From the NCBI RefSeq assembly GCF_000148385.1, contig NC_014537.1:930001-962000 (forward strand): a stretch of DNA of 32,000 bases. Direction: 5' to 3'. The position numbers and the translations under genes were made by a program. Positions 6,400 to 27,372 of the stretch are shown here, piece after piece. The stretch comes from Vulcanisaeta distributa DSM 14429. GTDB taxonomy: Archaea > Thermoproteota > Thermoprotei > Thermoproteales > Thermocladiaceae. Numbering within the stretch: position 1 is the first letter of the stretch; the number at the start of each line of letters is the position of its first letter. The notes under the pieces are model-generated. The model saw only the letters and a list, made by a program, of their open reading frames with translations, made no database searches and was not told the origin of the DNA.

Positions 6400-7248
6400 G
6401 TGCTTGCTAATCGTGATGCCGTGAGTACCCCTAATGTAGAGATATTCATACACCCAACATGTAGCACATGCCATACACTAATTAGGTTATTGAAGCAGTG
6501 GGGTTACCTGGATAGGGTTAGGATAATAGATACGTCTAGGGACCCATACACGGCCATGGAGAGGGGCGTTAGGTCAGTGCCAAGCATCTTCATTAATGGC
6601 GAGCTAGTATTCGCTGGGATAGTTGATTTCAAGAGACTTAAGGCATTGCTGGATGGTGAGTATTTGGGTAATAGGTTTGAGGGCGACTTAAAGGAGCTTG
6701 AGGAGAGGTTTTTCAGGGGCGTCCTCGATAGTGTAGCGACGGCATTATGGCTATACGTTAATGAGGATTGTGATGCCTTTCTCAGGGATAAGGAATTCGT
6801 AATGGCGATAACGAACCTATCGGTGTATAGTGATCGTGAGGAGCTATACAATGAGCTACGTAAGTACCTAGGCAATGCCAATACGTGCAGGGAAGCCATA
6901 AGGAGTAGGGAGGATAGGTTCCTAACTGTGATAACCAAGAACTTCGCTAGGGAGATTTACTGGCTCCATAATAAGTTCCTGAGCTGGGGTGAAGTGTCGA
7001 AACTATATAGCAGGGAAGTTATTGCCCACTGGATGATTGTACGAAGCGCCCTTGGTAGGGTCGGCCTTAGGGCTTACCCAATCAGTAATGAGAGGTTTAG
7101 GGAGAAGGTTGAGAGGGTTTATGAATACATGAGCAAGACGTTTGATGATTACATGAGGCAGGTCATTAATGAGCAGACAAAGATATTCAGTGACTCGGAG
7201 TATATCGAGGTCATTGAAGGCTTCATGAAAAGTATAAAGGGTCCTTAG
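6400..7248 (+). CDS. thioredoxin/glutaredoxin-fold protein (CSTC active site) fused to an uncharacterised ~190-aa helical domain
   Basis: GTG start. The N-terminal ~85 aa read VEIFIHPTCSTCHTLIRLL...GVRSVPSIFINGELVFAG. This is a small redox-active thioredoxin-like fold with CxxC at 6460..6471 and a cis-Pro-type VP. The gene ends 18 nt before the radical-SAM gene. Confidence 0.65.
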   Translation: MLANRDAVSTPNVEIFIHPTCSTCHTLIRLLKQWGYLDRVRIIDTSRDPYTAMERGVRSVPSIFINGELVFAGIVDFKRLKALLDGEYLGNRFEGDLKELEERFFRGVLDSVATALWLYVNEDCDAFLRDKEFVMAITNLSVYSDREELYNELRKYLGNANTCREAIRSREDRFLTVITKNFAREIYWLHNKFLSWGEVSKLYSREVIAHWMIVRSALGRVGLRAYPISNERFREKVERVYEYMSKTFDDYMRQVINEQTKIFSDSEYIEVIEGFMKSIKGP

Positions 7249-9033: not shown

Positions 9034-9429
9034 ATGCGTGAGGAGGCAGAGCAGTGGTTCAAGGAGGCTATCAGGGAGCTCGAGTTAGCACGGCACTTAC
9101 TTGAAATAGGCTACCTGAACTACGCGGCATTCCATTCGCATCAAGCTGCTGAGAAGGCATTGAAGGCGTTGATAATTGTAAGGCTTAGAATGTTACCGCC
9201 AAAGACCCATAACTTACTGGAACTAGCTGAGAAATTGAGGAATGGTGGTATTGCGATTGATGATGTACTTGATGATCTGAGGGATTTAAACCCGCATTAC
9301 CTAGTTGCTCGTTATCCAGATGCGGCTAATGGCGTACCCAGTGAGGTTTATTCAAGGAGGGAAGCTCAGCATTGTGTTGAGTCCGCATCTAAGGTGGTCG
9401 AATGGGTGAGGAGGTTATTCATGAGTTAA
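9034..9429 (+). CDS. HEPN-domain protein (putative toxin/RNase component)
   Basis: 131 aa with the typical archaeal HEPN pattern YLNYAAFHSHQAAEKALKALI, R-x6-H (RMLPPKTH) and ARYPD. Confidence 0.8.
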   Translation: MREEAEQWFKEAIRELELARHLLEIGYLNYAAFHSHQAAEKALKALIIVRLRMLPPKTHNLLELAEKLRNGGIAIDDVLDDLRDLNPHYLVARYPDAANGVPSEVYSRREAQHCVESASKVVEWVRRLFMS

Positions 9430-9830
9430 GGAGGTACATTCGATGCCTAATTGAACACGGCCATAGGATTAACTCAGCCGTACTCTTCGGTTCACGCGCA
9501 AGGGATGATTGGCTGATTAATAGCGACATTGATTTATTAATTATAATCCTGAACTCAGAAAAGAGCTTCCTAGAGAGGGTTCGCGAATTCACGACTTGTT
9601 GGAACTTGGGAATAGCCCTCGAGGTCTTCCCGTACACGGTCGATGAGATTAAGAGGTTAATGAATAAGGGATCTATTGCATTATACGATGCGTTGGACTA
9701 CGGTATCGTGATTTACGATGATGGAACCTTTGAGAAGCTGAGGGAAGTATTTAGGAAAGCCGTTAATGAGGGTATCATTAGGAGGATTGGTGGTTGGTGG
9801 ACAATACCTGAGAGGCCAATTATTGATTAA
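9402..9830 (+). CDS. minimal nucleotidyltransferase (MNT) partner of HEPN
   Basis: Pol-beta-type NTase signature LFGSRARDDWLINSDIDLLII. The gene overlaps the HEPN gene by 28 nt on the same strand. Confidence 0.8.
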   Translation: MGEEVIHELRRYIRCLIEHGHRINSAVLFGSRARDDWLINSDIDLLIIILNSEKSFLERVREFTTCWNLGIALEVFPYTVDEIKRLMNKGSIALYDALDYGIVIYDDGTFEKLREVFRKAVNEGIIRRIGGWWTIPERPIID

Positions 9831-9843
9831 TGGTAATGAGTAT

Positions 9844-9879
9844 TTTAAGTGAACAGCCGGAGTAAAAAAGATCCACAAT
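9844..9879 (+). promoter_or_regulatory. conserved upstream module, copy A (TTTAAGTGAACAGCCGGAGTAAAAAAGATCCACAAT)
   Basis: 26 nt (9844..9869) are identical to 12144..12169. The 15-nt core TGAACAGCCGGAGTA (9850..9864) is also identical at 23695..23709. An A-run follows the core about 20-30 nt before the ATG at 9891, which is TATA-box spacing for a leaderless mRNA. Confidence 0.7.
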
Positions 9880-9890
9880 GAAACTTAGTA

Positions 9891-10850
9891 ATGATGGGCA
9901 TGGACTTAAAATGGAAGAAGATAGGCATTATAACGATACCGGCGGTGCTCGCTATAGTAATGATTACAATACTGGCAGCATATACTATGAACCCAATGCA
10001 GGCATATAACTCCTTAACACCGGCATATGTATTTAACGTAGTCGCAAACTTCAGCGATGGAGGTATTAACCAGACAATGATGCAGGAAATGATTAGGAAC
10101 ACTGTCAATAGTGCACTACGTGGGTTCATTACCTTAAATAAGCCACCCTACCCAGTAGTTAATGTTAAGCTCTTCAAAAATACGTTGGTCACGTTCCAAC
10201 TACCCAGCAATTATAGGTATCGATATGCATCAATCGTGGTTCATAACGATACCTTATACGTGTACTTATGGAATAATGCGAATAATTATAAGTTATACGC
10301 TATTGTAAGACGCCCAATAGCCAGCGTGAAGATAGAAATTATTTACCCACGTGAGGGAAACTTCACACCCGTTGGCGTATTAGGGGTTGAGAAGTTCTCC
10401 GTCCCATTGCCTGGATTAAACAGTGCCGATGATCCGGAGGTGTATTTTGAATATTATGAGGCCTTATGGTACATTGGTAATCAGCTTGCTGCTAATACTA
10501 CGGCCGCTGGCTGGTTCTTCATAAACCTAGGAGTTTCCGTTGAGAGCATATTAGATGATGGTCATGCCCAGCCGGGATTTGGCTATGCACTATGTACGAC
10601 AAACGCGCCAGGGACTAATTATGGCGTTGGATCTATCGCTGCGCAAACGCAGACCGATGCAGGTTATGCGTTTTATGATTGCGGATTCACCGTTGTATTG
10701 AGTAACTGGCCTTGGGTTGGTATGGACGCTAACGGCAATGTTTACTACCCAACATCATTCCCAGGTGCTAAGTCCATACAAGCTGCATGCATATGCACTG
10801 GTGCATCATTTTACTTCCAAGCACCACCTCCTTTACCTGGTGAGGATTAA
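9891..10850 (+). CDS. membrane-anchored secreted protein P1 (319 aa), unknown family
   Basis: It starts MMGM, followed by the anchor IGIITIPAVLAIVMITILAAY. The ectodomain is rich in Y/N/G/T/A and carries several NxS/T sequons. Preceded by conserved module copy A. Confidence 0.7.
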   Translation: MMGMDLKWKKIGIITIPAVLAIVMITILAAYTMNPMQAYNSLTPAYVFNVVANFSDGGINQTMMQEMIRNTVNSALRGFITLNKPPYPVVNVKLFKNTLVTFQLPSNYRYRYASIVVHNDTLYVYLWNNANNYKLYAIVRRPIASVKIEIIYPREGNFTPVGVLGVEKFSVPLPGLNSADDPEVYFEYYEALWYIGNQLAANTTAAGWFFINLGVSVESILDDGHAQPGFGYALCTTNAPGTNYGVGSIAAQTQTDAGYAFYDCGFTVVLSNWPWVGMDANGNVYYPTSFPGAKSIQAACICTGASFYFQAPPPLPGED

Positions 10851-10889
10851 TTAGTTAATATTTAATAAAGCATTAAAAATATTAAAGTT

Positions 10890-11441
10890 TTAAGGGGCCT
10901 CAAACGTTATACTCTCGTAATTGCCAACTTTAAGGCCCTTCTTAACCGTTAACCTCAGTATATTCCCACTACCCAGTATGGAACCCTCTCCGGCGAATTC
11001 ATACTCAATGATCTTAAAGCCCGGTGGAAAGAGCCAAACGATCTCATAATCATACTCAGCAACCTCCTCCTCATAATAATCCTCATACCTATTAACACCA
11101 CGCCTCAAATTACCCTTGAAGTATATGTAAAACTCGAGGTAGGGCCTATCGAAGGAACCCCTGAAGCCGAGGCTTACATCAATAACCCTAGCCTTAACAA
11201 CCTCACCGTTAATCTTAATCGTCTCCTCATCTAGAAAACCCTGCATATTCTCCATGATGGTCCTCAACTCATTGAGTAAGCCCTCCCTATCCCTAAGCAG
11301 GTTCTTGTAATAACGATCTTTATCCAGGTACTCAAAGATTAAACTCTCCCAAACACCACCGTCAACCCCCATTGTGAATATTCCCTCAGCATGTATCGGC
11401 ACCGGCTCACTCATTGAAATTAGGTTCCTCAGCAAGTTCAA
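10890..11441 (-). CDS. hypothetical cytoplasmic protein (183 aa; start possibly at the internal Met 27 nt downstream)
   Basis: Coding-like, E/Y/K/G-rich, with no TM segment and no recognisable motif. Confidence 0.45.
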   Translation of the reverse strand: MNLLRNLISMSEPVPIHAEGIFTMGVDGGVWESLIFEYLDKDRYYKNLLRDREGLLNELRTIMENMQGFLDEETIKINGEVVKARVIDVSLGFRGSFDRPYLEFYIYFKGNLRRGVNRYEDYYEEEVAEYDYEIVWLFPPGFKIIEYEFAGEGSILGSGNILRLTVKKGLKVGNYESITFEAP

Positions 11442-11493
11442 AAGCCTTGTTATGGATTTGACAGGGCCTAAATAGGATTTATTAATGGCTTGA

Positions 11494-12096
11494 TTGCTAA
11501 TTACTTCTGTGGATGAGCTTATTTACGTGATTAGCCTATTGATTACGATAATAGCCTACCTGGCTGCACTCACGTATTGGTTAGGTAGGAGGTTTGAGGG
11601 TATTGATTGGAGGTTTAGGGATTTGGAGGAGAGATTGAGTAATAGGATTAGGGAGGTGGAGATTAAGCTGGAGGGGAGGATTAGTAATTTAGAAAATAGA
11701 ATTAATAATCTGGAGAATAGGATAGACGGCTTGGAAAATAAAATGAGAAGCTTAGAGAGTGGTCTTAAGTCAGCGCTTGTTAATGTTAACTCGCTCCTTA
11801 TTGAGTATATGGGGCTTAAGGGCTTGTTCTCCCCGGACGAGGTTAGGGTGTTGACTAATGAGGTGGGTAGGGTCGTTGACATGGTTAGGGCTAACCCAAT
11901 CAGTAAGGAGGAGCTCGAGTTCATAAAGTCCGTGTTCTCCAAGGACCCTGATCAAATGAGTATTGAGGAGCTTGAGAGGGTCATTGAGATCGCAAAGCGT
12001 TGGTGGGAGGACAATTCCGAAATAGCCTTCAAGGTCTTTCAAGTGGCCAGTATAGTAAGGGCGTATAAATTGTACGGAAAGAAGAAACAACAATGA
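11494..12096 (+). CDS. N-terminally anchored coiled-coil protein with heptad (LENRIxx) repeats
   Basis: TTG start, with GTG 11512 as an alternative. TM helix LIYVISLLITIIAYLAALTYWL. This is followed by about 50 aa of heptads (RFRDLEERLSNRIREVEIKLEGRISNLENRINNLENRIDGLENKMRSLESGLKS) and a helical C-terminal domain. Confidence 0.6.
   Translation: MLITSVDELIYVISLLITIIAYLAALTYWLGRRFEGIDWRFRDLEERLSNRIREVEIKLEGRISNLENRINNLENRIDGLENKMRSLESGLKSALVNVNSLLIEYMGLKGLFSPDEVRVLTNEVGRVVDMVRANPISKEELEFIKSVFSKDPDQMSIEELERVIEIAKRWWEDNSEIAFKVFQVASIVRAYKLYGKKKQQ
11686..11769 (+). repeat. four tandem 21-bp (7-codon) units inside the coiled-coil gene
   Basis: The four units are aatttagaaaatagaattaat, aatctggagaataggatagac, ggcttggaaaataaaatgaga and agcttagagagtggtcttaag. 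They encode NLENRIN, NLENRID, GLENKMR and SLESGLK. Confidence 0.7.
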
Positions 12097-12143
12097 ACGA
12101 ACTTAAATTAAGCATATTAATACACAGTTTATCACTCGGTCAA

Positions 12144-12178
12144 TTTAAGTGAACAGCCGGAGTAAAAAAATCCGCAAT
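12144..12178 (+). promoter_or_regulatory. conserved upstream module, copy B (TTTAAGTGAACAGCCGGAGTAAAAAAATCCGCAAT)
   Basis: Near-identical to copy A. The core starts 39 nt before the ATG at 12189. The start region AATGATGGGTATG matches AATGATGGGCATG of copy A. Confidence 0.7.
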
Positions 12179-12188
12179 AGGTTCAGCA

Positions 12189-13601
12189 ATGATGGGTATG
12201 TTTAGGGTCGGCTATGTGATTACGGCTATAATAATTGCCGCAATCCTCACAGCAATGGTAGTAACCCTCATAATGCACGGGATGACTCACCATAAGTTAT
12301 TAAATCAACAATATACGTACCTAACGGAGCTCCTTGAGGGGGTCCCAACACCGAGTGTATGCATTGTTAGTTATGGGGCAAGCCCATATATAGGCAACTT
12401 AACGGCAAATCTCGGTAAGTTAGGAGTGCCATATGTGGTAATGAATATCATAACCAACGAGTCAGTAAGTAAGTGCAACATGCTGGTTATGAGTACAGAA
12501 TGGCTCAATCAGTTCGGCAGTAACTACAAGCCAGTGATAATATATGCCCTGGAAAGCGGTATTCCGGTCGAGGCTGTGGGGCCAAATGCCGGTAACACAT
12601 TGCTTAACGTGATTGGTGATTTCATAAGTAAGAAGGCAGCTGTAATTGTCGGTGTACCGACAGGCCATGACAAGCAACTAAAGCCTGAAGTACCAAGTAG
12701 CGTCACCGCACTGGGCATAGTTATGATACCGCTCAAAAACGCTACTAGGTTACCCACCGGCTGGAGTATATACGAGGGTGTACCAGCGAGTAATGTAACG
12801 TACACCGTGTTAAAGACTTGGAGGGAATATAACGAGGCGCTCAGTAAGGTTAAGTCACCATTAGTGCTACCGTTCCCATTATTAACCACAGCATTACCTC
12901 CCAAGATCCTCTTCCAGACATCAGGGTATTCATTACAGGTAAATATACAGGGCTTTAATTATGTGGGTTACATAGGGCCTTATCAAACACAATACTACGA
13001 TTGGTTTGGAAATCTAGCCGGCGAACAGGAGCTTAGGGTTGATTTCTACTATACCACTGCGAACAACTATTATTTCTTCTTAAATTTAATTAAGCATGGC
13101 GTAATTGCTTTTAATCCTCCGGATCCATCGACATCGTTTATACCATGCTATGCAGGTGAAGGCGTTAACGCATATTCAACGGAATATCCTGGACGGGTAT
13201 GGTTCCAAGCAGCCCCCACAGGCTCTGCAACAAGCCAAAAAACAATATCTTACTCAATTGGAACTAATACAGCTAGTGTTACCGTTACTGAATACATTAC
13301 GTCAGGCGCAGTTGGTTGGAACTATCTCGGTCTATGGACTGAGGGACAGGATACGTGGAGATGGAATTTCCAGAACCCAAGTACCGAGACCACGTACGAG
13401 TTAGTACCCGGGGATATTTGGCAATTAGATCCATCAAAACCAGGCGGTTATCCGCCTCTTTATGAGACAATCAATGCCACGGCCGGTGTTGCTAATATTG
13501 AATGGTGGCCTGGTAATTACCTATGCAATTACATGTCTCCAATCAGCGTTACCGTCGATGTATATCCAACGTATGTCCATGTACTTCAGGTAAATACGTA
13601 A
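12189..13601 (+). CDS. membrane-anchored secreted protein P2 (470 aa), two-domain, unknown family
   Basis: It starts MMGM, followed by the anchor VGYVITAIIIAAILTAMVVTLIM. The N-domain is collinear by eye with that of P3. The C-terminal region is aromatic/Gly/Thr-rich, with sequons throughout. Preceded by module copy B. Confidence 0.7.
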   Translation: MMGMFRVGYVITAIIIAAILTAMVVTLIMHGMTHHKLLNQQYTYLTELLEGVPTPSVCIVSYGASPYIGNLTANLGKLGVPYVVMNIITNESVSKCNMLVMSTEWLNQFGSNYKPVIIYALESGIPVEAVGPNAGNTLLNVIGDFISKKAAVIVGVPTGHDKQLKPEVPSSVTALGIVMIPLKNATRLPTGWSIYEGVPASNVTYTVLKTWREYNEALSKVKSPLVLPFPLLTTALPPKILFQTSGYSLQVNIQGFNYVGYIGPYQTQYYDWFGNLAGEQELRVDFYYTTANNYYFFLNLIKHGVIAFNPPDPSTSFIPCYAGEGVNAYSTEYPGRVWFQAAPTGSATSQKTISYSIGTNTASVTVTEYITSGAVGWNYLGLWTEGQDTWRWNFQNPSTETTYELVPGDIWQLDPSKPGGYPPLYETINATAGVANIEWWPGNYLCNYMSPISVTVDVYPTYVHVLQVNT

Positions 13602-18515: not shown

Positions 18516-19106
18516 ATGACCGAGTGGGCTACGATGAGGAATTATAGGTTGTGGGTTGGCATGGCTCTCATGGCACTCTCGATATACTTAATCATCAAGC
18601 TTTATGACAACCTATTCCTAAGCCTTAGGGTACCTATAGTCGCTGTCGGTCCTGACGGTGTGTTAAAGGTCATAGGGTCAATAAGGCCGTTTACAAGCCC
18701 TGTCCTTGCCTACGACATCGTACTTAGCATGGTATTAACAGCAATCCTATCATCACTAGCCTCAGTACTCATTTACTCCTCAATAACGAGTGGTAGGTAT
18801 AGAAGTAATCCTGCTTATCAGGGTAGTTTAGTCGTAGGTATGGATGATCATGACAAGGCCATAACTGCTCTTACACTTTCAAACCTGGAGAAAAGGGCTT
18901 TACAGGTAATACGTAAGAGGGGTGGTATGATAACACAGGCTGAGCTGGGGCGCGAGCTAGGGTTGAGTAAGTACCAAGTGTCAAGGCTCGTAAAGAGGCT
19001 TGAGGCGAAGGGGATTATTGAGAGAAGGAGGGCTGGTGTTACGAATATTTTGATTTTACGTAACGGTCTTAACACTCTGGGAAATCTCAGTAAGAATAAG
19101 GACTAG
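18516..19106 (+). CDS. membrane-associated winged-helix (MarR/ArsR-like) DNA-binding protein
   Basis: Two predicted TM helices: LWVGMALMALSIYLIIKL and VLSMVLTAILSSLASVLIY. These are followed by LSNLEKRALQVIRKRGGMITQAELGRELGLSKYQVSRLVKRLEAKGIIERRR. Confidence 0.65.
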   Translation: MTEWATMRNYRLWVGMALMALSIYLIIKLYDNLFLSLRVPIVAVGPDGVLKVIGSIRPFTSPVLAYDIVLSMVLTAILSSLASVLIYSSITSGRYRSNPAYQGSLVVGMDDHDKAITALTLSNLEKRALQVIRKRGGMITQAELGRELGLSKYQVSRLVKRLEAKGIIERRRAGVTNILILRNGLNTLGNLSKNKD

Positions 19107-23466: not shown

Positions 23467-23474
23467 TTAAAAGG
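23467..23474 (+). promoter_or_regulatory. TATA-like box for the tRNA gene
   Basis: TTAAAAGG is centred about 26 nt upstream of tRNA position 1. Confidence 0.4.
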
Positions 23475-23495: not shown

Positions 23496-23593
23496 GGGCC
23501 CGTAGTCTAGCCTGGTAGGATGCCCAGGGGCCGATGCCCCGTACAAGCCTGACGCGCGGGAGATCCCGGGTTCAAGTCCCGGCGGGCCCACCA
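23496..23593 (+). tRNA. tRNA-Val(GAC) with a 21-nt intron (23526..23546) at non-canonical position 29/30; CCA encoded
   Basis: The 7-bp acceptor stem is perfect (GGGCCCG/CGGGCCC). The T arm is CCGGG-TTCAAGT-CCCGG and the D arm is GTCT-AGCCTGGTA-GGAT. Removing AGGGGCCGATGCCCCGTACAA restores the anticodon stem CCCGC/GCGGG with loop CTGACGC. An alternative pre-tRNA fold gives 3-nt bulges CC|A and AA|G around a short helix, plus the intron hairpin GGGGC-CGAT-GCCCC (BHB-like). Confidence 0.8.
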
Positions 23594-23688
23594 AGGCATC
23601 TTAAACATTAGATATTCTATGACTGCATTGACGTCACTCCTTACTCAGGATGCATGCCCGTAAACAAATTCAAACTCACTCGAATCAC

Positions 23689-23722
23689 TTTTACTGAACA
23701 GCCGGAGTATTAAAAAATCCGT
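23689..23722 (+). promoter_or_regulatory. conserved upstream module, copy C (TTTTACTGAACAGCCGGAGTATTAAAAAATCCGT)
   Basis: The core TGAACAGCCGGAGTA (23695..23709) is identical to copies A and B. It is followed by the A-run and TCC. The core starts 41 nt before TTG 23736 and 44 nt before ATG 23739. Confidence 0.65.
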
Positions 23723-23735
23723 TGTGCGATGCTAG

Positions 23736-25301
23736 TTGATGATTATGGGGATTAGGTTCAATAAATTGCTATTCACCGTACTGATCCTAGCAATCATAGC
23801 CGTGGCATCAATAATAGTCTTACCAACTTATAAGGCGTTCATTGGAATAAATCACGCAGGGGGCCTTACACGCGGTTACCCAGGGATGTCGCAGATGATC
23901 GAGCCCATACCCATACCTAGAGGTGTTGAAGTTTTTGCTGTTGGTCCTCCAGGGTTCATCCAGGGTATTGTCAACGCCGGCATTCCACAGGGCATCATAA
24001 CCCTCATAAACACTTCCAACATAATCAATGCGCCGTCTCAGTCGGTCATAGCCATTGACTGGACATACCTGTTTAATTACACGGGCAATAACATGACGAT
24101 TACCACTGGGATACTGAAGCACCTACTCATTAATAGGGATATCATAGTGATCGGCGTAAGTAATGTTAGCCAATTAATCACTGCGGAATTAATACTGGCC
24201 AAGGCATGGGCCAAGGCGTATAATGCGAGTGCCGTTGCCGTGCCCATGCCGAGGTACGGCATCAATAGTATGAGGTATGTATTAGCCGTGCCAATAGGCA
24301 GTAGGGCATTAATGATCGGGCCTGCCAACACTGCCGGCCTTAATGAGAGACTCATCACAGCATTGGAATTATTATATGGCGTAATTTCCACCATGCAGAA
24401 TCAGGTAGACCCAGACGATCCCTGCTACGCAATGGCTAGTTCCCTCTCAGCACCAACCCAACAAACAACCAATGTAAATAATGGCTACTTCTTCTGGTAT
24501 GGCCAGCAGACTTATAGTGATGGTTATGGCTATGAAACCGTTGATTTCTGCGTTGAAATTGGCCAAAACATTAATGAGGAGAATGGATATTACTACATCC
24601 CTGGGTATGAGTGGAACTTTATCGCATCAACACCAGCGCCTGGTGCGTATGTTAGTAGCCTATTATCGTTCACTGATCAGTATGCATCATACAAGTGCGC
24701 ACAAGGTGTCATGGAACCTGATGTATTTACGTGCTCGTATAGAAATACGCCGGTTGGTTGGTTCTCCTGGGCTGGCGATGACCCTGGCCCGATAAGTCCA
24801 TCAACATCGACAGGCGTGAGCTATCAAGTAAGTATTGCCCTTGGCTTCTCGGCCACCGGACCCACTGGTCAATTCGGTAACGCAATTACGGAAGGTTACA
24901 CAGTTACTGATCCACCGATTGAGATAAACTTAACGGCTCCTCAGTATACTAGTGCACCCAATGGAGGTCCTGTCCCCAATGAGACCTGGGTATTGGCACC
25001 AACAAACCCAACGGCCGCTGCCCAGCAGAATCAATTGGCTACTGAGATCCTTGGGCCTATGGTTATTTACCCATTCCTAACGACCCAGATCAACGTGCCT
25101 GCCGGCGTTCAAGCCGTGCTATATAGCGGTGGTGGTTCCTCATGTAATTATGAATCAGTCATATATGATATTCAATGGTTCATATTTTACCCATCACCAC
25201 CCAATACGCAGTTTCAAGTAATAAACATTGGAACCTCCGGACCAAGCATGTCGTCACCAAGTGGGTTCTATGTAACGGCGTACACGTCTAGTTGTCCCTA
25301 G
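23736..25301 (+). CDS. membrane-anchored secreted protein P3 (521 aa), two-domain, unknown family
   Basis: It starts (M)MIMG, followed by the anchor LLFTVLILAIIAVASIIVL. The N-domain is collinear with P2. The C-terminal region is Y/G/T/P/S-rich, with sequons (NTS, NYT, NMT, NVS, NAS, NLT, NET). Preceded by module copy C. Confidence 0.7.
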   Translation: MMIMGIRFNKLLFTVLILAIIAVASIIVLPTYKAFIGINHAGGLTRGYPGMSQMIEPIPIPRGVEVFAVGPPGFIQGIVNAGIPQGIITLINTSNIINAPSQSVIAIDWTYLFNYTGNNMTITTGILKHLLINRDIIVIGVSNVSQLITAELILAKAWAKAYNASAVAVPMPRYGINSMRYVLAVPIGSRALMIGPANTAGLNERLITALELLYGVISTMQNQVDPDDPCYAMASSLSAPTQQTTNVNNGYFFWYGQQTYSDGYGYETVDFCVEIGQNINEENGYYYIPGYEWNFIASTPAPGAYVSSLLSFTDQYASYKCAQGVMEPDVFTCSYRNTPVGWFSWAGDDPGPISPSTSTGVSYQVSIALGFSATGPTGQFGNAITEGYTVTDPPIEINLTAPQYTSAPNGGPVPNETWVLAPTNPTAAAQQNQLATEILGPMVIYPFLTTQINVPAGVQAVLYSGGGSSCNYESVIYDIQWFIFYPSPPNTQFQVINIGTSGPSMSSPSGFYVTAYTSSCP

Positions 25302-25673: not shown

Positions 25674-27372
25674 ATGTGCTATAGTATTATGCGTTTTATC
25701 AAGGGCTTTCCATCAACCATGATGGATGACTACCCACTAAACGTTCATGCAATATTAAGGCATGCTGCGTTATATTTTGGTGAGGATGAGGTTGTGTCTA
25801 GGGATGTTGATGGTAGTATTGCAAGATTAACGTATCGAGATGTTTATGATAGGGTTCAGAGGATGGCCTCGATGCTTGAGAGCGAATTAGGTGTGGGACC
25901 CGGTGATAGGGTTGGCGCACTTGGTGTTAATACCCATAGGTATTACGAGCTTTACTTCGCCGTATCAGGTATTGGCGCTGTTTTTGTTGAGATGAACTTT
26001 AGGTTGTCGCCAGTCGAGATAACTCAATGTGGCTAATCATTCAAAGATTAAGGTTCTCTTCATAGATGCACCGCTCTTAACCCAGTTTTTAGGAATGTAA
26101 TTCCGCAATTTAAGCATGTAGAGAAGGTGGTGGTAATGGGTAGAACAAACGAATCGATAGGATTGAGTGGATTAAGGACTTATGATTATGAGGACCTAGT
26201 GAGGAGTGGTGGTAAGTATGATTTCCCATTCATCGATGAGAGGTCATCATGCTGTGCATGCTATACATCCGGAACCACAGGCATGCCTAAAGGGGTCTAC
26301 TATTCTCATAGATCCTTCGTATTGCATGCAATGGCAATTCACCAGGTATTTCCCATGAGCTCAAGCGATGCGCTTTTGCAGCTTGTTCCGTTATATCACG
26401 TGAATGGTTGGGGAATGCCGTTTGCAGCTACTATGGTCGGCGCAAAGCTTGTTTTTCCGGGTATATGGAGTATAAACGACTTGAAACCCATAATTGATTT
26501 AATGATAAACGAGAAGATAACGCGATCAAATGGCGTGCCTAGCATATGGATATCCATACTCAATTACTTAAGGTCAATGAGCCCTAGGCCGCACTTCAAC
26601 ATGAGGGTTGTAAGTGGTGGTTCAGAGCCGCCGGTGGCTATGATGCGGGGTTTAAGTGAATTTGGTATTGAGGTAGTACATGCGTATGGATCCACTGAGA
26701 CATCGCCGTTAAGCCATGTCTACGTACTTAAGCCTAAGGTGCTTGAGAAATTAAGGACAGAGGATGAGTATTGGGAACATAGGGCTAGGCAGGGCTTACC
26801 CATGTTTCCCATGGAGCGTAAGGTTATTGATGAGTATGGACGTGATGTGCCTTGGGATGGAAAAACACCCGGCGAGCTACTTGAAAGGGGTCCTTGGACA
26901 ATTAGAGAGTACTTCAATGATCAAAGGACATTTGATTCCTTCTATGGTGAAGGTATTGATATCTGGTGTAGGAGTGGTAATGCGGTTGTTATTGATGGAG
27001 ATGGGTATATGAAGATCGTGGATAGACTAAAGGATTTGATAAAGAGTGGTGGCGAGTGGATATCAAGCGTTGACATGGAAAACTACCTAATGGCGCATCC
27101 CGCGGTTTATGAAGCTACTGTGGTCGGAGTACCGCACCCAAAGTGGGGTGAGAGACCGTTAGCGTTCGTGGTCCTAAAGCCTGAGTATAAGAATAGAATA
27201 AAGATAAGAGGAATTAAAGAAAGAATTACTAAATCATTTATCGAGTAGGTTTGCGAAGTGGCAGTTACCGGAGATACTATTTGTTGATTCGATACCAAAG
27301 ACGAACACCGGAAAGTTCGATAAGAAGGTATTGAGGGAGCAGTATAAGGATTATTTTACCAAGGAAAAGTAG
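25674..27372 (+). pseudogene. AMP-dependent acyl-CoA synthetase/ligase gene interrupted by three frameshifts
   Basis: Family-like sequence runs through several frames in turn. Frame 0 covers 25674-26033 (MRFIKGFPSTMMDDYPLNV...NFRLSPVEIT). Frame +1 covers about 26023-26097 (ANHSKIKVLFIDAPLLTQFLG). Frame 0 resumes at about 26052-27248 and includes YTSGTTGMPKGVYYSHRS. Frame +1 covers 27208-27372 (EELKKELLNHLSSRFAKWQLPEILFVDSIPKTNTGKFDKKVLREQY...). In-frame stops lie at 26034, 26049 and 27246. Confidence 0.7.

What the first reader, a model, noticed from the sequence alone, without database searches (positions are those of the whole stretch)
9844..12178. The same upstream DNA module sits in front of three secreted-protein genes
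TTTAAGTGAACAGCCGGAGTAAAAAA is identical over 26 nt at 9844-9869 and 12144-12169. Its 15-nt core TGAACAGCCGGAGTA recurs a third time at 23695-23709. Each copy is on the + strand and is followed by an A-run plus TCC.

The core starts 39-44 nt upstream of the start of an anchored secreted protein (9891, 12189, 23736/23739). Conservation resumes at the start codon itself: AATGATGGGCATG, AATGATGGGTATG and TTGATGATTATGGGG give MMGM, MMGM and MMIMG.

The A-run lies about 20-30 nt before the first start codon. That is where an archaeal TATA box for a leaderless transcript would sit. The GC-rich invariant block therefore overlaps or lies upstream of the BRE position and is far more conserved than a generic BRE needs to be. 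It looks like a dedicated operator or activator site defining a small regulon of surface proteins. I know of no described motif of this kind.
Basis: partly seen in the sequence, partly recalled or inferred. Interest (0 to 1): 0.7.

Follow-up and report, generated by a model that had tools for sequence, protein, structure and literature searches.

The report
Shared promoter cassette for surface proteins
Three genes for membrane-anchored surface proteins in the hot-spring archaeon Vulcanisaeta distributa sit behind the same undescribed ~60-bp promoter module, which recurs across the genus in front of otherwise unrelated, fast-evolving surface-protein genes. It probably acts as a shared on-switch and a swap point for those genes.

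Summary
TGAACAGCCGGAGTA occurs exactly three times in the window, all on the + strand, 39-44 nt before ORFs that begin MxMG followed by one N-terminal TM helix.

The window is Vulcanisaeta distributa. About 23 further distinct copies occur in Vulcanisaeta genomes and hot-spring metagenomes. All point at an ORF for an N-terminally anchored, Cys- and NxS/T-containing protein. These proteins fall into at least five sequence-unrelated groups.

The full module is about 60 bp: TTCAA..CTCGAATCAC, a T-box, the core, an A-run, then (G)TCC. The ATG lies 17-26 nt after the A-run. The window's tRNA-Ile TATA box sits at the same distance from its transcript, so the A-run is most likely the TATA box of a leaderless mRNA.

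There is no RNA structure, no Rfam hit and no scattered copies.

Two caveats temper the regulon reading. Orthologous promoters found independently of the motif keep the architecture but vary the central core. Unrelated gene bodies sit behind identical module, spacer and first codons at one conserved locus, which indicates cassette exchange or gene conversion.

A dedicated regulator is plausible but unproven. Verdict: real and undescribed, a new member of a known kind. Interest is moderate.

The parts
9844..9874 (+). Module copy 1, truncated form. T-box TTTAAG 9844-9849, core TGAACAGCCGGAGTA 9850-9864, A-run 9864-9869, GATCC 9870-9874. The upstream half of the module is missing because the nucleotidyltransferase gene ends at 9830.
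   Evidence: nhmmer match 9840-9869, E 6.5e-8
9891..10850 (+). ORF P1, 319 aa. It starts ATGATGGGCATG (MMGM) and has one N-terminal TM helix, 4 Cys and 5 NxS/T sequons. No Pfam or NCBIfam family, and no detectable homology to P2, P3 or family A.
12135..12173 (+). Module copy 2. CTCGGTCAA 12135-12143, T-box TTTAAG 12144-12149, core 12150-12164, A-run 12164-12170, TCC 12171-12173.
   Evidence: nhmmer 12136-12170, E 9.5e-10
12189..13601 (+). ORF P2, 470 aa. It starts ATGATGGGTATG (MMGM) and has an N-terminal TM helix. Thirty-five relatives were found; every one that carries an organism name is a Vulcanisaeta. No family assignment.
23650..23720 (+). Module copy 3, full form. Conserved upstream block from ~23650 including TTCAAACTCA, CTCGAATCAC 23679-23688, T-box TTTTAC 23689-23694, core 23695-23709, A/T-run 23708-23718, TCC 23718-23720.
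   Evidence: nhmmer 23674-23715, E 2e-11; 95.6-100% identical to the JCM 14467 orthologous locus, while both flanking spacers are 73-75%
23739..25301 (+). ORF P3, 520 aa from ATG 23739. A TTG lies at 23736, and NCBI starts the protein at 23745. It begins MIMG. It belongs to 'family A': TM helix, alpha/beta domain and beta-rich domain. The family has only 35 representative clusters among 1.84 billion proteins.

Best explanation
The repeated DNA is the promoter region of these genes, and it belongs to a ~60-bp module conserved across the genus Vulcanisaeta.

Proposed anatomy (inferred, except where the evidence is given below):
- The A-run (TAAAAAA) is the TATA box.
- The GGAG immediately upstream occupies the BRE position.
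- Transcription starts at or within a few nt of the conserved ATGnnnATGGG, giving a leaderless mRNA.
- The ~45 bp upstream of the TATA box (TGAACAGCC of the core, the T-rich box, CTCGAATCAC, TTCAA) is an upstream control region. It is most likely bound by a lineage-specific transcription factor that helps recruit TBP/TFB. This would co-express a small set of N-terminally anchored, probably glycosylated surface proteins, one to three per searchable genome.

Two processes keep the copies alike:
- Selection on this control region.
- Recombination or gene conversion. The module plus the first few codons behaves as a portable 'express-and-export' cassette behind which unrelated gene bodies are exchanged.

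What is shown: the sequence anatomy, the orientation and spacing, conservation across lineages, the absence of RNA structure, and the cassette exchange.
What is inferred: the TATA and TSS assignment, the existence and sign of a regulator, and co-expression.
For: **Exact copies and gene linkage**
- There are three exact copies, all pointing at gene starts.
- A scan of 185,579 species genomes with core+WWAAA returned 7 hits. Four are in Vulcanisaeta and three are chance bacterial hits without the flanks.
- The metagenome scan returned about 20 hot-spring contigs with the same extended module.
- Every instance whose downstream sequence could be read is followed by an ORF with one N-terminal TM helix (KD19 >= 2.4), an even Cys count and 1-13 NxS/T sequons. 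Three instances run off their contig, and L007 is frameshifted.
- Those proteins form at least five groups with no detectable sequence homology beyond the anchor.

**Geometry**
- The end of the A/T-run lies 17-26 nt before the ATG in all readable copies, whatever the run length.
- The tRNA-Ile TATA-like box ends 23 nt before the mature 5' end.
- Other genes in the window have TATA-like boxes ending 21-32 nt before their starts.
- There is no consistent Shine-Dalgarno-like motif in the spacer.

**Phylogenetic footprint** for P3 against its JCM 14467 orthologue:

| Region | Identity |
|---|---|
| tRNA-Ile | 96.9% |
| spacer after the tRNA | 75% |
| module -45..-1 | 95.6% |
| core | 100% |
| A-run to ATG | 73% |
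| CDS start | 86% |

**No RNA role.** Fold z-scores are -0.12 to +1.15 and there is no Rfam family.

**Low copy number.** nhmmer finds no degenerate or orphan copies in about 300 kb of held Vulcanisaeta DNA.

**Cassette exchange**
- L035 (family A body) and L031/L032/L034/L028/L038 (family B body) share the upstream divergent gene, the module up to about 12-20 nt into the CDS, and a downstream flank. The gene bodies are unrelated.
- The L035 body is 82% identical to an L042 gene that has a different promoter and N-terminus.
Against: - No TSS, expression or binding data exist, and no regulator has been identified.
- The core has no dyad symmetry of the kind most archaeal regulators use.
- All canonical copies were found by searching for the exact core, so their 100% identity is partly ascertainment.
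- Homologues retrieved without using the motif never had the exact core:

| Locus | Core sequence |
|---|---|
| L052 | TGAACAcCCaaAGTA |
| V. moutnovskia L053 | TGAAtAGgCGaAGTA |
| P2 orthologue L059 | TGAACAGCtGagGTA |
| P2 orthologue L058 | TGAAaAaCCGagtTA |
| P2 orthologue L060 | TGAACttCCaaGTtt |
| P2 orthologue L062 | TGAACAcaCaAGTgA |
| L056 | degenerate |
| L054, L055 | no module |

- The central GC-rich hexamer therefore tolerates change. Only TGAA(C), AGT and the two AT boxes are general.
- A second TATA-like box (TTTAAG, TTTAAA or TTTTTA) lies directly upstream of the core. It could be the real TATA box, with a ~20-nt leader.
- The A-run length varies from 6 to 11 nt, and reaches 20 in L042. 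That would shift BRE-TATA-TSS spacing.
- Copy 1 and L007 lack the upstream half of the module.
Confidence: 0.55

Rival explanations
1. Same promoter, different geometry. The T-box (TTTAAG/TTTTTA) immediately upstream of the core is the TATA box. Transcription starts in the A-run/(G)TCC region, giving a ~20-nt leader. The GC-rich core then lies between TATA box and TSS and is an operator for a repressor that blocks RNA polymerase recruitment, with the A-run acting as an AT-rich proximal promoter element.
For: - The T-box is present in every copy, including the diverged orthologous promoters, and in those it is a canonical TTTAAA/TTTAAC.
- A TATA box centred about 3-4 nt before the core predicts a TSS roughly 25 nt downstream. 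That is exactly the conserved A-run/(G)TCC junction.
- The conserved (G)TCC after the run is otherwise unexplained.
- A-run length variation is harmless in this geometry.
- From established knowledge: many archaeal repressors bind between the TATA box and the TSS.
Against: - No Shine-Dalgarno-like motif appears at a fixed distance in the presumed leader.
- The leader would be as unconstrained as neutral spacer, 73% identity against 75%.
- The distance from A-run to ATG matches the TATA-to-TSS distance of the tRNA-Ile gene and other genes in the window.
- The twin in-frame ATGs fit a leaderless start.
Confidence: 0.22
2. There is no dedicated regulator. The module is simply a strong generic promoter plus signal-anchor start. 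It has been copied between genes by promoter reuse or gene conversion and keeps being homogenised by recombination, so identity among copies reflects recent copying rather than a specific binding site.
For: - The unconstrained TATA-to-ATG spacer and the first codons are identical between genes with unrelated bodies (L035 vs L033/L031; L028 vs L030).
- Gene-body replacement occurs behind the module at a conserved locus.
- The start-codon context is lineage-specific. It is ATGnnnATGGG in the V. distributa group and ATG[T/A]GGTCTGGG in another clade, across different protein families.
- The centre of the core drifts at P2 orthologues.
- Promoter reuse is documented in prokaryotes (PMC3575422, found; only its title and abstract were read).
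Against: - The exact 15-mer and the ~45 bp upstream persist in lineages whose family-A proteins are only 22-35% identical. They are also more conserved than both neighbouring spacers in an orthologous pair. Copying alone does not explain that without selection.
- A generic promoter needs only BRE and TATA, and other promoters in the window share nothing with the block upstream of the TATA box.
Confidence: 0.15
3. The conserved block acts at the RNA level (5'-UTR element or small RNA), or it is a target for site-specific recombination or inversion.
For: - Short inverted repeats flank both AT boxes: TCA..TGA around the T-box and GGA..TCC around the A-run.
- The module coincides with recombination breakpoints.
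Against: - Fold energies are no better than shuffles, with z from -0.12 to +1.15.
- There is no Rfam match.
- All three forward frames are closed, and no covarying stem was seen.
- No recombinase gene lies near any copy in the window.
- Breakpoints lie inside the CDS start, not at the core.
- All copies in the window are in direct orientation.
Confidence: 0.05

Closest known systems
Upstream activating sites of archaeal promoters (Ptr2 sites in Methanocaldococcus, the GvpE UAS in haloarchaea, ArnR/ArnR1 boxes at the Sulfolobus archaellin promoter, the Sulfolobus ARA-box); recalled from my own knowledge, not tested here
   Same: A conserved, gene-specific block lies directly upstream of BRE/TATA. 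It is shared by a few promoters and controls surface or appendage genes in the ArnR case. Its position is compatible with recruitment of TBP/TFB.
   Different: The sequence is unrelated. No regulator is known, no dyad or direct-repeat half-sites are evident, and a second AT-rich box lies inside the block. The module extends into the first codons and travels with them.
Mycoplasma hyorhinis vlp genes and related mycoplasma variable surface lipoprotein families
   Same: Several genes share a near-identical promoter region containing a homopolymeric A tract. I recall that the vlp genes also share a conserved 5' coding region for the membrane-anchoring N-terminus while the surface-exposed bodies diverge strongly. 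Tract-length changes switch vlp transcription on and off (PMC2268961, citing Citti and Wise 1995). Here the A/T-run also varies in length, 6-11 nt and once 20.
   Different: This is an archaeal BRE/TATA promoter, not a bacterial -35/-10 promoter. The A tract is itself the putative TATA box rather than a spacer. The tracts are short, and no on/off switching has been shown. The anchors are TM helices, not lipoboxes.
Promoter reuse / putative mobile promoters in prokaryotes (PMC3575422)
   Same: Highly similar upstream regions occur in front of non-homologous genes within and between related genomes. The promoter changes partners independently of the gene body.
   Different: Here the reused unit includes the start codon and part of the signal anchor. 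It is restricted to one functional class of genes and is conserved across a whole genus. No transposon or IS context was seen.

Membership tests
Archaeal BRE/TATA core promoter of a leaderless mRNA | An AT-rich 8-bp box whose 3' end lies about 22-25 bp upstream of the transcription start, which for a leaderless mRNA is the start codon | tested here: met
   The A/T-run end lies 17-26 nt before the ATG in all readable copies. Internal rulers are tRNA-Ile at 23 nt and other genes at 21-32 nt.
Archaeal BRE/TATA core promoter of a leaderless mRNA | An experimentally mapped TSS at the start codon | not testable with these tools
   No Vulcanisaeta TSS or RNA-seq data were found.
Archaeal BRE/TATA core promoter of a leaderless mRNA | No Shine-Dalgarno motif or conserved leader between the TATA box and the ATG | tested here: met
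   The spacers differ freely and show no fixed GGTG/GAGG motif. Spacer identity between orthologues is 73%.
Transcription-factor operator/UAS defining a regulon | The motif recurs at a fixed position and orientation in promoters of several non-homologous genes | tested here: met
   Three copies in the window and about 23 distinct copies elsewhere all point at ORFs, with the core start 39-48 nt (once 60 nt) before the ATG. The proteins fall into at least five unrelated groups.
Transcription-factor operator/UAS defining a regulon | The motif is conserved at orthologous promoters beyond the neutral background | tested here: inconclusive
   For P3 against JCM 14467 the module is 96-100% identical while the spacers are 73-75%. 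P2 orthologues and other homologues keep the architecture but change 3-6 of the 15 core bases.
Transcription-factor operator/UAS defining a regulon | A cognate DNA-binding protein and co-regulation of the targets | not testable with these tools
   There are only candidates by proximity: a membrane-anchored MarR-type wHTH at 18516-19106 and a DUF2250 wHTH near the V. moutnovskia copy.
MITE / dispersed repeat | Many copies scattered without relation to gene starts, with terminal inverted repeats and target-site duplications | tested here: not met
   There are 1-3 exact copies per searchable genome or large contig. All are promoter-proximal and co-oriented with the downstream gene. No orphan or degenerate copies were found. 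Viral-contig hits are chance matches lacking the flanks.
Structured RNA / known RNA family | A stable fold better than shuffled controls, or a match to an Rfam model | tested here: not met
   z-scores are -0.12 to +1.15. Rfam gives only the tRNA.
Reused / mobile promoter (sensu PMC3575422) | Near-identical upstream sequence in front of non-homologous genes, with the promoter and gene body having separate histories | tested here: met
   Identical module, spacer and first codons precede unrelated bodies, and the same body occurs with a different promoter. The paper's formal similarity thresholds were not applied.
Phase-variable promoter with a homopolymeric tract (vlp-like) | A homopolymer tract in the promoter whose length varies between clones and switches expression | tested here: inconclusive
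   Tract length differs between loci and strains: 6-11 nt, and 20 in L042 against 7 in the 99.6%-identical L044. Some assemblies are 454-type (the contig name JC3A454; that the JCM draft genomes are Ion-Torrent is my recollection), so homopolymer errors are possible. No within-population or expression data exist.

The most novel reading that the evidence does not exclude
The module is an archaeal 'expression-and-export cassette'. It combines a dedicated promoter, a leaderless start and the beginning of a signal anchor, and it serves as a fixed landing pad behind which hypervariable surface-protein bodies are swapped by recombination among Vulcanisaeta populations. Its homopolymeric A-tract, which is also the TATA box, would allow slippage-driven tuning or on/off switching. 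This would be an antigenic-variation-like system in a hyperthermophilic archaeon, presumably driven by viruses that use these proteins as receptors.
Probability: 0.15. Interest if true: 0.8.

Novelty: new member of a known kind. Interest (0 to 1): 0.45.

Why it matters
Cis-regulatory logic in Thermoproteales is almost unknown, and no regulon has been defined in Vulcanisaeta. This module gives a ready-made, sharply defined 60-bp bait for finding a crenarchaeal regulator of cell-surface proteins. It could also serve as a candidate strong or regulated promoter for genetic tools.

It also marks a small set of lineage-restricted, rapidly diverging surface proteins (35 representative clusters in 1.84 billion proteins for family A). 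These are likely to be at the interface with viruses or the environment.

The exchange of gene bodies behind a fixed promoter and signal-anchor start suggests how archaea diversify their surface without rewiring expression or export.

Tried and rejected
- **RNA element:** Rfam gathering scan of the window gave only the tRNA. Single-strand folds of four module copies were no better than shuffles.
- **Mobile element or virus:** the viral-contig scan with the core gave 19 hits, none with the A-run or the flanks, so these are chance matches.
- **Protein function:**
  - Pfam and NCBIfam gave nothing for P1, P2, P3 or the metagenomic family A/B/L030 proteins.
  - Foldseek of the P3 model against PDB gave no hit with E < 1e-3; the weak leukocidin-like beta matches have TM 0.14-0.3.
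  - The P2 model was too poor (pLDDT 40) to search.
- **Common ancestry of the three proteins:** BLASTP and hhalign show nothing for P1. P2 and P3 share only weak colinear similarity (E 0.003 and 0.037) and the same secondary-structure order after the TM helix.
- **Profile search:** the search with the family-A alignment returned only 4 proteins and was poor value.
- **Failed look-ups:** P0033 and P0064 were not on record.
- **Divergent 285-aa gene as regulator:** it has no Pfam domain and is absent from the window.
- **Bidirectional promoter:** no divergent gene exists at any window copy.
- **Literature:** no paper contains the motif string in an archaeal context, and none covers Vulcanisaeta promoters or leaderless transcripts.
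- **Own genome:** the window's genome could not be scanned. The genome collection returned none of the three window copies, so that region or genome is evidently masked.
Full report
**1. Observation**

The window contains TGAACAGCCGGAGTA exactly three times, at 9850, 12150 and 23695, all on the + strand. No further copy exists with up to three mismatches.

The 26-nt identity 9844-9869 = 12144-12169 is exact and ends on both sides at a mismatch. Each core is followed by an A-run and TCC.

The downstream ORFs are 9891-10850, 12189-13601 and 23736/23739-25301. They start 39-44 nt after the core start with MMGM, MMGM and (L)MIMG. All three forward frames are closed across the core, as read directly from the sequence, so it is non-coding on that strand.

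**2. Organism and gene context**

P3 is 100% identical to a Vulcanisaeta distributa protein on a 2,374,137-bp contig. P2 is likewise 100% identical to a V. distributa protein. GC content is 0.44.

The surrounding genes are housekeeping genes: MoeA, NurA, radical SAM, MetE-like, a class II aminoacyl-tRNA synthetase (tRNA-synt_2 domain), CobQ, an amino-acid permease, TrkA and PfkB.

- Copy 1 begins 20 nt after a HEPN/nucleotidyltransferase pair.
- Copy 2 begins 54 nt after a coiled-coil membrane protein gene.
- Copy 3 begins 100 nt after an intron-containing tRNA-Ile.

All three upstream neighbours are co-oriented with the module, so it is not a divergent promoter here.

**3. The three proteins**

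Each has one strong N-terminal hydrophobic helix and no other, an even number of cysteines, and 5-7 N-glycosylation sequons. None matches Pfam or NCBIfam.

- P1 shows no similarity to P2, P3 or a 16-member family-A profile.
- P2 and P3 share only weak colinear BLAST segments, E 0.003 and 0.037.
- P2 and P3 have the same beta-alpha order after the TM helix in AlphaFold models, with pLDDT 65 and 40.
- The P3 model consists of a TM helix, a linker, an alpha/beta domain and a beta-rich domain. It has no significant PDB neighbour.
- Family A is tiny and lineage-restricted: 35 representative clusters at E <= 1e-3 among 1.84 billion.

The 26-nt identity is therefore not leftover paralogue similarity.

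**4. The module elsewhere**

A scan of one genome per species (596 Gb) with core+WWAAA gave seven hits. Four are Vulcanisaeta: V. distributa JCM 11216 once and Vulcanisaeta sp. JCM 14467 three times. Three are bacterial and lack any flank similarity, close to the ~4 I estimate by chance for an 18-base + 2W pattern in 596 Gb.

The window's own copies were not returned, so its genome is evidently masked and could not be counted.

The metagenome scan gave 25 contigs. About 20 are from hot springs and carry the same extended module. The viral scan gave only chance hits.

Anchoring 23 distinct copies on the core gives this consensus:

tTCAAyCC..CTCGaaTCAC-TTTTnA-TGAACAGCCGGAGTA-A(5-10)-(G)TCC

Every copy points at an ORF. 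Wherever the ORF can be read, it begins with a basic residue cluster and a single TM helix.

The downstream proteins form at least five groups with no detectable homology beyond the anchor: family A, family B, P1, P2/L003-like singles, and the 213-aa L030 type.

An nhmmer profile of the 43-nt module finds no weak or orphan copies in the window or any held Vulcanisaeta locus. Copy number is one to three per searchable genome or large contig. This refutes a MITE or dispersed repeat.

**5. Geometry**

The distance from the end of the A/T-run to the first ATG of the long ORF is 17-26 nt in all readable copies. This holds although the run itself varies from 6 to 11 nt, and reaches 20 nt in L042.

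- In the same window the tRNA-Ile gene has TTAAAAGG ending 23 nt before the mature 5' end.
- Most protein genes in the window have a TTTAAA/TATAAA/TTAAAAA-type box ending 21-32 nt before the start codon.
- The spacer between A-run and ATG has no fixed Shine-Dalgarno-like motif.
- In the P3/JCM 14467 orthologous pair that spacer evolves as fast as the unconstrained spacer after the tRNA, 73% against 75%. The 60 nt upstream of the A-run are 96-100% identical.

This is the pattern expected if the A-run is the TATA box, GGAG sits at the BRE position, and the mRNA is leaderless from the conserved ATGnnnATGGG.

A caveat is the second AT-rich box directly upstream of the core. In diverged orthologous promoters it is a textbook TTTAAA. 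If it were the TATA box, transcription would start at the A-run/GTCC junction, and the core would be an operator between TATA box and TSS. I rate this rival at about 0.2.

**6. RNA-level and recombination-site readings**

Four module copies fold no better than shuffled controls, with z from -0.12 to +1.15. Rfam finds only the tRNA. No recombinase lies near the window copies.

**7. Unbiased test of conservation**

All canonical copies were found by exact match, so I also retrieved homologues by protein and looked upstream.

| Group | Locus | What lies upstream |
|---|---|---|
| Family A | L052 | Full module, core TGAACAcCCaaAGTA |
| Family A | V. moutnovskia L053 | Module with core TGAAtAGgCGaAGTA before a 285-aa MVMG+TM gene, followed 5 nt later by the family-A gene |
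| Family A | L056 | Degenerate |
| Family A | L054, L055 | No module |
| P2 orthologues (45-57% identity) | L059 | TGAACAGCtGagGTA |
| P2 orthologues | L058 | TGAAaAaCCGagtTA |
| P2 orthologues | L060 | TGAACttCCaaGTtt |
| P2 orthologues | L062 | TGAACAcaCaAGTgA |

The P2 orthologues all keep T-box, TGAAC, AGT, A-run, G(T/C)CC and an ATG about 20 nt later, but with altered centres. JCM 14467 has three canonical copies and this degenerate one in the same genome.

So the architecture is general, and the exact 15-mer is kept at a subset of promoters. That fits a specific site that some genes retain and others lose. It also shows that the central hexamer is not indispensable for a working promoter.

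**8. Cassette behaviour**

L035 and L031/L032/L034/L028/L038 are one orthologous locus.

- They share about 1.9 kb upstream (a divergent 285-aa gene) and the module up to roughly 12-20 nt into the CDS.
- They share a downstream flank: L035 4477-4732 matches L034 7918-8170.
- Yet L035 carries a family-A body and the others a family-B body.
- The L035 body is 82% identical to a gene in L042 that has a different promoter and a different N-terminus.

The unconstrained TATA-to-ATG spacer and the first codons are identical between unrelated genes (L035 vs L033; L028 vs L030). The start context is also clade-specific across families: ATGnnnATGGG in the V. distributa group and ATG[T/A]GGTCTGGG in another clade.

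Within the window, the 26-nt identity and the shared AATGATGGGyATG of copies 1 and 2, in front of non-homologous P1 and P2, fit the same process. The module plus the first codons is therefore exchanged or homogenised by recombination, in addition to being selected.

**9. Comparison with known systems**

- By position, the block resembles archaeal upstream activating sites (Ptr2, GvpE, ArnR, ARA-box; from my own knowledge). No defining protein partner can be tested here.
- By organisation, it resembles the Mycoplasma hyorhinis vlp genes: a conserved promoter with an A tract, which I recall is combined there with a conserved anchor-coding start and variable bodies. In vlp, tract length switches transcription (PMC2268961). 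Switching is untested here, and homopolymer sequencing error is possible.
- By history, it matches 'promoter reuse' (PMC3575422).
- No paper in the searchable library contains the motif or discusses Vulcanisaeta promoters.

**10. Verdict**

The finding is real, non-random and correctly localised. It is a genus-wide, undescribed promoter module for N-terminally anchored surface proteins, most likely TATA/BRE plus an upstream regulator site for leaderless mRNAs (confidence 0.55).

The 'dedicated regulon' claim is plausible but unproven, and it is weakened by core drift at orthologous promoters. The added finding that the module is a recombination-prone cassette is the more unusual aspect.

Novelty: new member of a known kind. 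Interest 0.45.

Noticed in passing
window 9034-9830: A HEPN-domain gene (9034-9429) and a minimal nucleotidyltransferase gene (9402-9830) overlap by 28 nt. This is a toxin-antitoxin-like pair, and it ends 20 nt before module copy 1, replacing the upstream half of the module.
   Followed up: partly
window 23496-23593 and 23467-23474: tRNA-Ile(GAT) is 98 nt long, longer than a standard tRNA, presumably because of an intron. Its TATA-like TTAAAAGG ends 23 nt before the mature 5' end. I used it as an internal ruler for promoter geometry.
   Followed up: yes
window 18516-19106: A 196-aa protein has two N-terminal hydrophobic helices and a C-terminal MarR-type winged helix. It looks like a membrane-anchored transcription factor and lies between module copies 2 and 3. 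It is a candidate regulator by proximity only.
   Followed up: partly
window 25674-26036 and 26127-27248: An AMP-binding (acyl-CoA synthetase-like) enzyme is split into two ORFs that match consecutive parts of the Pfam model. It is either a frameshifted pseudogene or a split gene.
   Followed up: no
L002 270-3143 (V. distributa JCM 11216, another strain): A type II/IV secretion-type ATPase (T2SSE) and a ParA/MinD-like ATPase lie directly upstream of a canonical module and a family-A gene. This hints at a link to a pilus-like or secretion machinery.
   Followed up: no
L042 ~6824-6865 vs L044 1638-1679: The A/T-run after the core is 20 nt in L042 (a 1.05-Mb contig) but 7 nt in the 99.6%-identical gene copy in L044. 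This is either tract-length polymorphism or an assembly artefact.
   Followed up: partly
L006 4091-5676 (Vulcanisaeta sp. JCM 14467): A frameshifted family-B gene without any module sits between pfkB and tRNA-Ile. The window has nothing at that position, so this is an insertion/deletion of a surface-protein gene between close relatives.
   Followed up: partly
L007 7220-7254 (Vulcanisaeta sp. JCM 14467): The canonical core lies inside the last codons (...YEQPE*) of an MBL-fold hydrolase gene. The downstream ORFs are broken (138 aa and 297 aa), and one carries an LVIRAYL motif like family B.
   Followed up: partly
L053 574-3075 / L057 8088-11575 (V. moutnovskia CP002529): A variant module drives a two-gene unit: a 285-aa MVMG+TM protein, then a family-A gene 5 nt later. 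A DUF2250 winged-helix gene lies 700 nt upstream.
   Followed up: partly
L031 2155-3012 and 6078-6299; L034 4475-5329 and 8395-8616: The divergent 285-aa gene next to the module has no Pfam match. A second, 50%-identical partial copy lies downstream of the surface-protein gene, which suggests repeated [divergent gene + module gene] units.
   Followed up: no
window 10890-11441 (-) and 11494-12096 (+): A divergent pair lies between module genes P1 and P2. One is a 183-aa protein with no family. The other is a 200-aa protein with an N-terminal hydrophobic segment and heptad-like NRI..LEN repeats, giving only weak coiled-coil matches.
   Followed up: no
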